Virus record (IMG/VR): IMGVR_UViG_2698536620_000015
Reading direction: 5' to 3' (one strand)
DNA from: a virus
Taxonomy: Duplodnaviria > Heunggongvirae > Uroviricota > Caudoviricetes
Length of the DNA stretch: 49,469 nt
Part shown: positions 1 to 3,000 of the stretch, piece by piece
Layout: each line of letters starts with the position of its first letter
Position numbering within the stretch: the first letter of the stretch is position 1
Position numbers: made by a program

Positions 1-3000
1 ATGTTTTGCGAAGAAAAAGTAGCTCAAATGGCTGCATACCTACTTCTTAAGCGAGGTGGGCGCATGGCATATCTGAAATTGATGAAGCTGCTCTATCTGT
101 CTAACCGCAAGTCGATTTTGAAGCATGGCAGGATGATCGGCGAAGATAGCCTTTACTCTATGAAATTTGGTCCAGTCATGTCGAATACGCTGAACTTGAT
201 TCGTGGTAAGGCTGAAGGTATTGGTGACTACTGGTACAACCTGATAGAGACGAACGGGCATGATGTGTTGTTGCGTTCAGATCCGAGGGAAATGGATGCA
301 GACGAGGTCTTTGATGAGTTGAGCCGTGCAGATATCCGGATTTTAGATGAAATCTATTCTCTGTATGGGCATATGAACCGATTTGATCTCGCAAACATGA
401 CGCATTTAGAAAGCGTTTGTCCAGAGTGGCACAATCCTGGCAATTCTCGTAAGCCTATAGACCTGAAAGAAATGCTGATCAGTGAGGGTAAAAGCGAGGA
501 TGAGGCTAATCGTATAATTGGCAAAATGGAAGAATCTCAGAAACTTAAGGAATTTTCTTTGCAATTATCATGACGGATTATCAGCCATACAGGAAAGGAA
601 CTGTGCTTGCCCCAACTGGGCCATGCAATCATCTTCATGTGATTTGTAATGATCCTGTTTATTACCCCGTTAACGATTGTTATTGTGTTTTAGTTGTTAA
701 TATTTCTAGTATCAAGGATGGTGTCCCCCACGATCCGTCTTGCGTCTTGAATTCTGGTGATCATCGCTTTATCAAGCATCCAAGTTATGTTGTTTACGCT
801 GAAGCTATAATTTGGCGAGTGGATAACATGGTTAGAAAGCAGCGATCGGGTGAGATTTCCGTTCATGATGATATGCCAGAAGCTACATTCAATAGAATTC
901 TGGACGGTTTTGATATATCTGATGAAGTTACGCCAAAGAACCTTAAATTTAAAAATAAATATTGCGTATCATCTATTGATGATGAGTAAACAACAGGAAT
1001 TGTTTCGGTATAGCTTCTGGAGTTTTCTATGGAAGATCAAAAAGCAACCAAGCCACAGGTTAAGTTCGACACAATGAAAGCATTCGCAGGTATGGGTGCT
1101 GCTGTTGAAGTTCTGATGAAGGCTGCTCCTAATGCGTTCACTCACGCTACTGTCTCTGGTAAAGAGCAGCAGGGTAAGCTTCGTCGTCGCAAAGCAGCAT
1201 GATCATAGCTGGTGCTTTTTGAAAACCCGCCTTTAGGCGGGTTTTTTCTTTAGTGATGTTCTTTGCCCTTCTGTTTGCCTGTTCTGACCTGTTCCCACTC
1301 GATACGTCCTTCTTCTCGTCTTTTGTCTATGTATTCCGCAAGATCCTGAATATTGATGCAACGTTTTGCTTTTTGTGATGTACCGATGCGATATGTAGGT
1401 ACAGGCAACTTACAAGCGTTTGCTTTTGCTTCTGCTGTGGCTGGACTCATACCAAAGTATTTTTGACTAACTGCTGAGAGTTCAATGTTTGGGGTATTGA
1501 ATTCAGCCATCAGTAAAAACAAGGTATTCATATCATTTCTCCATCATAACCGGCTGCACCCGGTGAGTTACTTATTCATTTCAATAATATTATTTTCTAT
1601 CATTGATTTATTTAAAACCAAAGAAGGAGCAAGATGGTTGTCTATTTTAAACAATGCATAACTTTTAAACTGTTGGTGATATCCGTAACTAATAAGGATG
1701 CTAGAAAAATCTCTTAATTCATCTTCTTTTAAAAAATTAAAATGAAATGGGTTGTCACCATTTATGAACAATGAAACATCTATTATGCAGTATTTCTCTC
1801 CGTTGTCATTTGCATAGAAAAAAATATAAGACATTCTGTTTGTTAAGACAATGCCATTAAATTTTCTTATGTCTGTAGCTATTTTGTTTTCCATGTTTGG
1901 TGCTACATATTTATTTTCAGAAATACATTTAATTTCATCTCCAGATGTCGTGATTATATAAAAATGAAACTTATCAGAAATATCTAACTTAACTACGCCA
2001 TCATTATTGTAAAGGCTGCTAAATTTTGGTGGTTCAACTTTTAAAGAATCATAGTTCTTTAAAAGAAGAGGGGAGTCAAATTTAATAACTTGTAGTATCC
2101 CTTTACCTTCAACCTCCATATTGATTGAAGATATAGCAATTGCATTATCTCTTTTATTATTCAGGATTATGGTTGATATATGCATGTCATATATTCTACT
2201 TGCATTTGCTGAATACGACACTGTCACCTTTTTTGATATTTTTTGCACGCCAAAATATATAGTGAAGGCAGCGGCAAGAATAGATAAGAATTTAATGTCA
2301 AATAAGGACCATAGCCACATTAGTTGCTCAATTGCTTCAGAGTTAATCATTTGCTTTACCATTATCGCTGTAATACAACACATGTGTGTATATATACGCA
2401 ATGCAATTATTTTGCAAGTGCTTCATTTACTATCAATAGCTACGTCACGTTATTGTTTAATGGTTCTTTATAGGGGCGGCAATAGTTAAAATTATCGCTT
2501 CCGTAAATGCCCCCGCAGGGGCATTTGCAGTAATGAAATCAGGCGGTGAAAGTACCAATAAAGGTTTCTACTTTGCTGTCTTTGAATTTCTCAACAAGCA
2601 GATCACGAAATTCGTTAGCCATTTCTTCCTGTACCGCTTCCAGCTGAATAATGCGCAGAACCAGTACAGGACGATCGCCAGTGATAATGCTGAGGCGTAA
2701 TTTAAACGGACGTTCTTTCAGACCTTCAAACGGAACGCATTTAAATTCAAATGCCACTGGCATAATGTCTTTGGTCTTCGCTTCGACAGACTCCATCAGG
2801 GAGCGTTTGCCGCTGAAGTCATTATCTTCAAAATCAGCGGTCTGGTTCGCTTCAATTGTGATTTTACGGATCGCCGCAGCCGCTTTGGTTGCCTGAATGG
2901 CGTCACCATTAGCATCAAAGCCCACAAGGTAGTCGGCCCAGTCTTCAATCCATTCTGCCAGTGACTTCTGGGAGTTACGCTCGCCATTAACAGACAACAG

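What the first reader, a model, noticed from the sequence alone, without database searches (positions are those of the whole stretch)
1532..2538. Sharply AT-rich orphan gene encoding a membrane-anchored protein in the early-left region
The 1568-2401 ORF sits in a block far more AT-rich than its neighbours (the protein is rich in I, N, K, F, Y), which points to recent horizontal acquisition. The product has one N-terminal hydrophobic helix and a roughly 230-aa soluble domain with no family I recognise. Such cargo between the excisionase-like gene and the pL operon is typical of superinfection-exclusion or defence morons.
Basis: partly seen in the sequence, partly recalled or inferred. Interest (0 to 1): 0.6.

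Follow-up and report, generated by a model that had tools for sequence, protein, structure and literature searches.

The report
AT-rich membrane-anchored prophage cargo gene
A single, very AT-rich gene swapped into an E. coli prophage next to its excision gene encodes a membrane-tethered protein of an uncharacterised family that travels on phages and plasmids, often beside known anti-phage systems, so it is a reasonable but untested candidate for a new phage-exclusion gene.

Summary
The gene is window 1568-2350 (-), 260 aa, not 1568-2401. It lies in a 926-bp cassette (1564-2489) of 29.8% GC against 52.4% for the window (z = -4.05), the most AT-rich block present. Related E. coli prophages share the flanks (PrtN-type excisionase, yfdQ), but in the sampled ones a 6-7-gene ea-type block sits there instead. 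The cassette is in 99 of 5426 complete E. coli genomes.

It is not an orphan. It matches phrog_14996 (unknown function), and an exhaustive profile search finds 221 cluster representatives. No Pfam, NCBIfam, PADLOC or PDB relative exists.

The predicted protein has an N-terminal anchor helix, an Ig-like beta-sandwich and a confidently modelled C-terminal domain with no known fold. Charge bias predicts a cytoplasmic soluble domain.

Homologues occur in at least 13 contexts, all mobile elements, with no conserved partner. They lie beside xis/int in five lineages, in the P2 cos-proximal defence hotspot, directly after a Rosmer system, and on small plasmids next to MazEF.

A stand-alone exclusion/abortive-infection role is the best reading (about 0.45) but is untested. 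It is an ordinary kind of finding and a good candidate for a simple experiment.

The parts
1564..2489 (.). AT-rich cargo cassette (926 bp, 29.8% GC), delimited by loss of homology to related phages and prophages on both sides
   Evidence: The left break is at query position 364 of window 1200-2600. The right break is at query position 1290/1291 of window 1200-2900.
1568..2350 (-). Coding sequence, 260 aa (stop codon included), of an uncharacterised family (phrog_14996; RefSeq WP_047654657.1 'hypothetical protein')
   Evidence: phrog_14996 matches full length at E = 2.9e-178, starting at M18 of the mechanical ORF. The RefSeq annotation agrees. Homologues start at the same Met. dN/dS is 0.33-0.36.
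2243..2323 (-). Codons for the N-terminal hydrophobic anchor (aa ~10-36), predicted N-out/C-in
   Evidence: Kyte-Doolittle 19-mers reach up to 1.68. AF2 models a helix at 4-38. K/R is richer on the C-terminal flank in 60 of 72 family members and poorer in 4.
1916..2227 (-). Codons for the Ig-like beta-sandwich domain (aa ~42-145), including the best-conserved motifs (K37, N65-K-R-D-N69, P94, S111)
1571..1915 (-). Codons for the C-terminal alpha/beta domain (aa 146-260), which has no detectable structural relative
2351..2489 (-). 139-bp AT-rich 5' non-coding part of the cassette, a possible own promoter region (not shown)
   Evidence: It lies inside the cassette limits and is 33.8% GC. Sigma-70-like matches at 2436-2409 and 2390-2361 are no more frequent than in shuffles.
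2505..2526 (-). Stable hairpin (AAAUGCCCC-loop-GGGGCAUUU) just after the yfdQ stop. It lies in the conserved flank, not in the cassette, and may act as a weak terminator or attenuator between yfdQ and the cassette.
   Evidence: Read from the sequence. It is present in the MFE and centroid folds. It is not called by the terminator scan because there is no U-run.
1250..1531 (-). Left flank: PrtN-family excisionase, 36 bp downstream of the cargo gene and co-directional with it
   Evidence: PF11112 matches at 3.1e-23 and phrog_1300 'excisionase' at 1.1e-39. It is found in 741 E. coli genomes.
2539..3363 (-). Right flank: yfdQ (DUF2303), upstream of the cargo gene and co-directional with it
   Evidence: PF10065 matches at 7.9e-93. 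The flank is conserved in 2759 E. coli genomes.

Best explanation
The block is a self-contained single-gene cargo cassette (a moron-type element). In this lambdoid E. coli prophage it has replaced the usual ea-type early-left genes between xis and yfdQ.

It encodes a bitopic inner-membrane protein: a short N-terminus outside, one anchor helix, and a ~220-aa cytoplasmic part made of an Ig-like beta-sandwich plus a novel alpha/beta domain. No conserved catalytic-type motif is apparent.

The most likely role is a stand-alone phage-exclusion function that benefits the lysogen or plasmid host. In this model, the cytoplasmic domains recognise a component of an incoming or replicating phage at the inner face of the membrane. 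The protein then either aborts the infection through its conserved anchor and juxtamembrane segment (membrane perturbation, as in AbiP and Pdp(Sau)) or blocks genome entry (Sie-like).

Shown here: cargo status, composition, family membership, domain architecture, lack of a conserved partner, and carriage on mobile elements next to defence genes. Inferred: topology, expression from the prophage, and the exclusion function itself.
For: Cargo status:
- Sharp homology breaks lie at 1564 and 2489.
- The cassette is in 99 of 5426 genomes, whereas xis is in 741 and the yfdQ flank in 2759.
- Sampled relatives carry an exonuclease/DUF551/Ea22/MTase/yfdR block in the same interval.

Autonomy:
- There are at least 13 distinct contexts, and no neighbour cluster is shared by all of them.
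- The upstream partners are mutually unrelated.
- The gene is oriented against both neighbours in L040/L041 and in Acinetobacter phage ABMM1.

Defence-type and lysogeny-type locations:
- It lies directly against the portal gene of Pseudomonas P2-like prophages, after a STAND NTPase and near RnlAB. That is inside the cos-proximal gpA-gpQ defence hotspot (PMC9122126).
- It lies immediately downstream of RmrT+RmrA (Rosmer) in L037/L038.
- It lies beside xis/int in five lineages with three unrelated xis families.
- A Panacea TA-type pair lies about 580 bp away in this window, in a slot that holds YafO or other Panacea pairs in relatives.
- On a small non-mobilizable Acinetobacter plasmid it lies next to MazEF and a weak HNH_5-match protein.
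- Plasmid carriage argues against a function that serves only the phage lytic cycle.

Architecture:
- Anchor plus cytoplasmic domains.
- The juxtamembrane segment is the most conserved part.
- This parallels the single-gene membrane-anchored Abi proteins AbiP/AbiC and Pdp(Sau) (PMC13064643, PMC10127798).

It is a real gene: intact in every locus, dN/dS 0.33-0.36.
Against: - No experiment exists and no paper mentions the protein.
- No PADLOC v2 model matches it or any of 72 relatives beyond noise.
- In the sampled relatives, this slot in E. coli holds ordinary early-left accessory genes, not defence systems.
- The gene is co-directional with the early-left operon and ends 36 bp before xis, with no terminator after it. 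It may therefore be expressed mainly on induction rather than in the lysogen.
- Promoter-like matches upstream are no more frequent than chance.
- The anchor is only moderately hydrophobic (maximum KD 1.68, with D18 and K20 inside; 40 of 72 members exceed 1.6), and no dedicated TM predictor was available.
- The soluble domain is near neutral (pI 5.97), unlike the basic nucleic-acid-binding domains of AbiP and Pdp(Sau).
- Context association was not tested statistically against a background.
- From established knowledge rather than a test here: AT-rich DNA in E. coli is commonly silenced by H-NS.
Confidence: 0.45

Rival explanations
1. Phage-serving accessory early gene. The protein is made from the leftward early operon (or the nin region in other phages) after induction or infection. 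It would act on a host inner-membrane target to help the phage, for example by host takeover, inhibiting a host defence or division protein, or tuning lysis versus lysogeny.
For: In this window the gene is co-directional with yfdP-yfdQ-xis, lies 36 bp from xis, and has no demonstrable promoter or terminator of its own. It replaces other non-essential early-left genes. In Klebsiella, Raoultella and L037/38 it lies inside the rightward early (nin-like) region.
Against: Homologues sit on small non-mobilizable plasmids and a mobilizable Vibrio plasmid. They also sit in the P2 cos-proximal hotspot outside the lytic operons. They are oriented against both neighbours beside int in ABMM1 and in L040/41. 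Its presence in only 13% of prophages with the same xis shows it is dispensable for the phage.
Confidence: 0.2
2. Lysogenic-conversion or host-fitness factor unrelated to phages. It would be a membrane-tethered protein that alters envelope physiology, stress tolerance or host interaction, carried as cargo near the att end like lom, bor or gtr genes.
For: It occupies an att/int/xis-proximal position in five lineages, next to UmuDC cargo in ABMM1. It has a membrane anchor and an Ig-like domain. It is found in human, animal and environmental E. coli.
Against: The predicted topology puts the domains in the cytoplasm rather than at the surface. The recurring neighbours are defence and TA genes, not virulence genes. 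The family spans soil and water Pseudomonas and Acinetobacter plasmids, with no common niche.
Confidence: 0.12
3. Effector half of a two-gene system. The family would be a membrane effector that normally works with an upstream sensor (for example the STAND NTPase in Pseudomonas), and the E. coli copy would be a solo remnant or would use a partner encoded elsewhere.
For: In two Pseudomonas prophages a ~455-aa AAA_16/NB-ARC-like NTPase lies about 40 bp upstream on the same strand. In A. chinensis a 427-aa protein with a weak HNH_5 match lies 68 bp upstream. In L037/38 Rosmer lies upstream.
Against: The upstream genes are unrelated to one another. The two Pseudomonas loci are the same prophage type, so they count as one observation. 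Most contexts have no candidate partner, and no neighbour cluster is shared by all contexts. The solo E. coli gene is still under purifying selection.
Confidence: 0.08
4. Selfish membrane toxin or addiction-type gene that stabilises its mobile element, or a decaying passenger with no current function.
For: It is a small membrane-anchored protein in TA-rich neighbourhoods. One E. coli genome carries an IS1 insertion in the gene (H26).
Against: No cognate antitoxin-sized partner is conserved. All other copies are intact with dN/dS well below 1. At 260 aa with two folded domains it is far larger than typical membrane toxins.
Confidence: 0.07

Closest known systems
Lactococcal AbiP / AbiC group (single-gene abortive-infection proteins)
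   Different: There is no sequence relationship: the PADLOC library gave no hit for this protein or for 72 relatives. AbiP binds nucleic acids, whereas this soluble domain is near neutral (pI 5.97). The host phylum differs. The phenotype is untested here. A structure-to-structure comparison with AbiP could not be run.
Pdp(Sau), the S. aureus prophage membrane-anchored Abi protein
   Same: Both are prophage accessory genes found in several unrelated prophage types. Pdp(Sau) is 278 aa with an N-terminal membrane helix (aa 5-27) and a cytoplasmic C-terminal part. It acts alone and depolarises the membrane on infection (PMC10127798).
   Different: Pdp(Sau) has a positively charged, OB-fold-like C-terminal region and lies next to the lysis module. 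This protein has an Ig-like sandwich plus a novel alpha/beta domain, is not basic, and mostly lies next to xis/int or in nin-like regions.
Inner-membrane superinfection-exclusion proteins (P22 SieA, HK97 gp15, T4 Imm)
   Same: All are prophage- or phage-encoded, membrane-located, single-gene, and dispensable for the carrier phage. They are classic moron-type cargo (PMC10883804, PMC3594210).
   Different: No Pfam or PHROG match to any Sie family. Those proteins are mostly small or polytopic. This one is bitopic with a large predicted cytoplasmic domain. Blocking of DNA entry is untested.
Lambdoid 'moron' elements and the ea/b-region accessory genes
   Same: It is present or absent between conserved flanks in related phages, has atypical base composition, and lies next to the integration module.
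   Different: Its own promoter and terminator could not be shown. The cassette replaces a block of genes rather than being added between two adjacent genes.

Membership tests
phrog_14996 / the uncharacterised ~250-aa family defined here (alignments A1, A2) | Full-length profile match | tested here: met
   phrog_14996 matches at E = 2.9e-178, covering aa 18-277 of the mechanical ORF against profile positions 1-260 of 260. There are 11 close clusters and 221 representatives at E <= 1e-3.
Moron (independent cargo transcription unit in a phage genome) | Present in some and absent from other closely related phages, between conserved flanks | tested here: met
   The flanks are shared with phages and 741-2759 E. 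coli genomes, while the cassette is in 99. Homology breaks lie at 1564 and 2489. It replaces a gene block rather than being a pure insertion.
Moron (independent cargo transcription unit in a phage genome) | Base composition unlike the surrounding genome | tested here: met
   29.8% GC against 52.4%, z = -4.05.
Moron (independent cargo transcription unit in a phage genome) | Own promoter and terminator; expressed from the repressed prophage | tested here: inconclusive
   The cassette carries 139 bp of 5' DNA, but promoter-like matches (6) do not exceed shuffles (7.2 +/- 2.7). No terminator lies between the stop codon and xis. The opposite orientation to both neighbours in L040/41 and ABMM1 implies independent transcription there. 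Expression itself is not testable here.
AbiC/AbiP group | Sequence or profile similarity to AbiC/AbiP | tested here: not met
   The PADLOC v2 library gave no hit at E <= 0.1 for the protein and only noise-level hits for 72 relatives. Whether a dedicated AbiP model is in that library was not checked. A structural superposition with AbiP could not be run.
AbiC/AbiP group | N-terminal membrane anchor with the bulk of the protein on one side | tested here: met
   By prediction only. There is one hydrophobic segment (aa 10-36), and only 2 of 72 relatives have a second one. AF2 models a helix at 4-38.
AbiC/AbiP group and Pdp(Sau) | Basic, nucleic-acid-binding cytoplasmic domain (OB-fold-like in Pdp(Sau)) | tested here: not met
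AbiC/AbiP group, Pdp(Sau), Sie proteins | Phage resistance phenotype (abortive infection or block of DNA entry) | not testable with these tools
   This needs plaque, survival and DNA-entry assays.
Any system in PADLOC-DB v2.0.0 (known and candidate defence systems up to 2023) | HMM match to a component | tested here: not met
   Libraries newer than 2023 were not available.
Known superinfection-exclusion families in Pfam/PHROGs | HMM match | tested here: not met
   The only Pfam match is a sub-threshold Ig_TMEM131L_3 hit (E = 0.013, 16 bits against a cut-off of 28). The only PHROG match is phrog_14996, of unknown function.
Sec-exported periplasmic or secreted protein | Positively charged n-region before the hydrophobic core (N-in orientation) | tested here: not met
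   The N-tail MINSEAIEQ is acidic. K/R is enriched after the anchor in 60 of 72 relatives, and before it in 4.

The most novel reading that the evidence does not exclude
The family would be a new, widespread class of single-gene anti-phage proteins of Gammaproteobacterial temperate phages and plasmids. The protein is tethered to the cytoplasmic face of the inner membrane and uses an Ig-like domain plus a previously unseen alpha/beta fold to sense infection. It would act without any partner or recognisable enzymatic domain.
Probability: 0.4. Interest if true: 0.55.

Novelty: new member of a known kind. Interest (0 to 1): 0.4.

Why it matters
If the exclusion function is real, this would add a compact (783 bp), partner-free defence gene with a new fold to the catalogue. 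It would also explain one more piece of prophage 'dark matter' carried by about 2% of complete E. coli genomes, as well as by Shigella sonnei, Citrobacter, Klebsiella, Raoultella, Pseudomonas and Acinetobacter elements.

Its small size and single-gene nature make it unusually easy to test. Its conserved juxtamembrane segment and sandwich motifs (K37, N65-K-R-D-N69, P94) give immediate mutagenesis targets.

If the function is not defence, the gene is simply one of very many uncharacterised prophage accessory genes.

Tried and rejected
- **Sequence libraries.** Pfam, NCBIfam and PADLOC scans of the protein and of 72 relatives found nothing usable.
- **PDB by sequence.** The single-sequence search gave a best E of 0.61 and the profile search 2.2.
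- **Conserved partner.** The Pseudomonas STAND NTPase, the Acinetobacter HNH_5-match protein and the Buttiauxella HNH_2 protein are mutually unrelated, so I dropped the idea of a fixed two-gene module.
- **Locus scans with divergent alignments.** Single-protein scans of viral contigs with P0038 and P0029 found nothing, and P0164 recovered only the known locus.
- **Sequenced phages.** tblastn of the window protein against 50,697 phage genomes gave no match. Only a distant member appears, in Acinetobacter phage ABMM1.
- **Upstream non-coding DNA.** No conservation was detectable between contexts, so this neither supports nor refutes a shared promoter.
- **Promoter and terminator scan.** Matches were no more frequent than in shuffles.
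- **Rfam.** A scan of window 1-6000 gave only sub-threshold matches.
- **My own artefact.** The two other 'low-GC blocks' were runs of N.
- **Literature.** Searches for the accession numbers and the PHROG id found no papers.
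Full report
**1. What is there.**
The window is a lambdoid E. coli prophage. In strain O25b:H4 the same sequence lies next to zur. The gene order there is Panacea-domain gene, 139-aa partner, PrtN-type excisionase, the gene in question, yfdQ, yfdP and a cI-like repressor (ymfK).

The mechanical ORF 1568-2401 starts at a TTG. The PHROG profile (phrog_14996, E = 2.9e-178) aligns from M18. All homologues begin at the equivalent Met, and RefSeq annotates 783 bp (WP_047654657.1). The gene is therefore 1568-2350 (-), 260 aa.

**2. Composition.**
- The gene is 29.0% GC, depleted at all three codon positions (0.34/0.26/0.26).
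- Homology to related phages stops at window 1563 on the left. Homology to 2759 E. coli genomes stops at 2490 on the right.
- This defines a 926-bp cassette (1564-2489) of 29.8% GC. With N excluded it lies 4.05 SD below the mean of all 926-bp windows (52.3 +/- 5.6%). It is the lowest block in the window, and the next lowest is 37.5%.
- Two other apparent dips in my first pass were masked runs of N.

**3. Cargo status.**
- The cassette occurs in 99 of 5426 complete E. coli genomes, always as xis | gene | yfdQ.
- The same xis occurs in 741 genomes.
- In four sampled relatives integrated at the same site, and in phage Lys8385Vzw, the xis-yfdQ interval holds 6-7 ordinary early-left accessory genes: a 3'-5' exonuclease, DUF551, an Ea22-like gene, a SAM methyltransferase and yfdR. 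The cassette therefore replaces that block.
- The neighbouring attL-xis slot is itself variable and holds TA-type pairs: two kinds of Panacea pair, or a YafO toxin pair.
- tblastn finds no homologue in any of 50,697 sequenced phage genomes.

**4. The family.**
- The word-indexed search found only 11 close clusters, from E. coli/Shigella, Citrobacter and Klebsiella. None has a Pfam domain and all are named 'hypothetical'.
- The exhaustive profile search found 221 representatives (141 at E <= 1e-10), mostly 240-265 aa. They extend to Pseudomonas, Raoultella, Buttiauxella, Acinetobacter and Vibrio.
- None of 72 full-length members matches a Pfam or PADLOC family beyond noise.
- The gene is AT-poor relative to its surroundings in every host: 29-33% GC in enterics, and 37% in Pseudomonas against flanks of 44-59%. 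Low GC is therefore a family trait rather than a simple mark of recent arrival.
- All copies examined are intact. dN/dS is 0.33-0.36 between 93%-identical alleles and lower for deeper pairs, where dS is saturated.

**5. The protein.**
- AlphaFold2 with the family alignment gives mean pLDDT 80.4. It shows a helix at 4-38, a beta-sandwich at ~43-141, a low-confidence linker, and an alpha/beta domain at 156-259.
- There is one hydrophobic segment, at aa 10-36 (KD up to 1.68). Only 2 of 72 relatives have a second one.
- In 60 of 72 relatives K/R is enriched on the C-terminal flank of the anchor (mean 2.2 against 0.56), and the reverse holds in 4. The N-tail is acidic. By the positive-inside rule this predicts N-out/C-in, with the ~220-aa part in the cytoplasm. 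This is an inference, since no dedicated predictor or experiment was available.
- Family-wide near-invariant residues are K37, N65, P94, S111, Y179 and G194. The juxtamembrane segment (37-47) is the most conserved stretch. I saw no conserved catalytic-type constellation.
- The soluble part is near neutral, pI 5.97.

**6. Context across the family.**
Neighbours were called with a greedy ORF finder and clustered, then annotated. At least 13 distinct contexts emerge, all on mobile elements, and no neighbour cluster is shared by all of them.
- **(a) Beside xis/int.** The gene is directly upstream of and co-directional with xis in four lineages that use three unrelated excisionase families: PrtN-type in E. 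coli, cluster c3 in Citrobacter and L039, and Exc (PF07825) in L034/35. It is also convergent with int in Acinetobacter phage ABMM1, after UmuDC cargo.
- **(b) Nin-like early-right region.** This is its position in Klebsiella, Raoultella and L037/38. In L037/38 it lies immediately after a complete Rosmer system (RmrT 9e-26, RmrA 6e-107).
- **(c) Independent orientation.** In L040/41 it is oriented against both neighbours (Ant and DUF4145).
- **(d) P2 hotspot.** In two Pseudomonas P2-like prophages it lies directly against the portal gene, after a STAND-type NTPase, with RnlAB nearby. The cos-proximal gpA-gpQ interval is an experimentally validated defence hotspot (PMC9122126).
- **(e) Plasmids.** It occurs on an 11-kb non-mobilizable A. 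chinensis plasmid next to MazEF and a protein with a weak HNH_5 match, on a 20.8-kb non-mobilizable A. towneri plasmid, and on a mobilizable Vibrio plasmid.
- **(f) Buttiauxella.** Here it lies after a type II REase-like HNH protein.

The candidate upstream 'partners' are unrelated to one another.

**7. Interpretation.**
The shown facts fit an autonomous single-gene cargo element. Several features favour a function that protects the carrier cell or element over one that serves the lytic cycle:
- carriage on plasmids as well as phages;
- repeated placement in att-proximal and hotspot positions;
- independent orientation in some genomes;
- recurrent company of TA and defence genes.

The architecture (anchor plus cytoplasmic domains, about 260 aa, acting alone) parallels the membrane-anchored Abi proteins AbiP/AbiC and Pdp(Sau). 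There is no homology, however, and the soluble domain is not basic, so membership in those families is rejected while the analogy stands.

I commit to stand-alone phage exclusion, with Abi-type somewhat more likely than Sie-type, at about 0.45. The main rival (0.2) is a phage-serving early function. It is supported by co-orientation with the early operons, the 36-bp spacing to xis, and the lack of a demonstrable promoter or terminator.

**8. Novelty and score.**
The gene is already annotated as hypothetical and sits in a PHROG of unknown function. No paper mentions it. If it is a defence gene, it would be a new family of a well-known kind. There are many such candidates, so a specialist would not be surprised. 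The case here is better than average (hotspot, Rosmer adjacency, plasmid carriage, a novel confidently modelled fold) and the experiment is simple. Interest 0.4.

Noticed in passing
window 1-573 (+) and 570-989 (+): A Panacea (SocA-like) domain protein (PF13274, 1.8e-18) overlaps by 4 bp a 139-aa protein of unknown function (phrog_19071). This is probably a PanA-type toxin-antitoxin pair. In related prophages the same attL-xis slot holds a different Panacea pair, a YafO-family toxin pair, or an unrelated gene, so it is a variable TA slot.
   Followed up: partly
window 14919-15334, 30328-30551, 34991-35271, 43615-43911 and several shorter stretches: Masked runs of N interrupt genes (for example a holin-like ORF and the tail-tip J-like ORF). 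They mimic low-GC blocks if N is counted in the denominator.
   Followed up: yes
window ~3792-4477: About 670 bp between yfdP (RefSeq 120 aa; the mechanical ORF runs on to 3977) and the cI-like repressor carries no annotated gene in RefSeq. It is the most GC-rich stretch of the left end (up to 55%). It may hold the leftward early promoter and an unannotated small gene or regulatory RNA.
   Followed up: no
L037:5067-6798 and L038:5067-6801 (IMG/VR prophage contigs): A complete Rosmer defence system (RmrT + RmrA) is embedded in the nin-like region of a lambdoid prophage, immediately upstream of the family gene.
   Followed up: partly
L011:6589-7959 and L012:6584-7951 (Pseudomonas P2-like prophages): A ~455-aa AAA_16/NB-ARC-like STAND NTPase sits in the cos-proximal hotspot. 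It has only weak similarity to the PADLOC candidate PDC-S59 (about 1e-7) and may itself be an uncharacterised defence gene.
   Followed up: partly
L003-L006:6015-7448 (Citrobacter islands): A 477-aa protein with no Pfam, PHROG or PADLOC match travels with the family gene, xis and int at the edge of at least three different islands (P4-like, CbtA/CbeA-type and Y4jQ-type).
   Followed up: partly
E. coli strain E89, NZ_CP121157.1 4392685-4394243 (hit H26): An IS1X2 element is inserted inside the gene in one of the 99 carrier genomes, which shows the gene is dispensable in that strain.
   Followed up: no
window ~12200-13300: This is the second most AT-rich real block of the window (about 37.5% GC), just upstream of a DNA methyltransferase gene (13643-14695). 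It may be another piece of cargo.
   Followed up: no
window 1221-1246: A strong bidirectional terminator-like hairpin (11 bp stem, 6 GC pairs, T-run) lies between the 57-aa ORF and the end of xis. It marks the end of the leftward operon.
   Followed up: no
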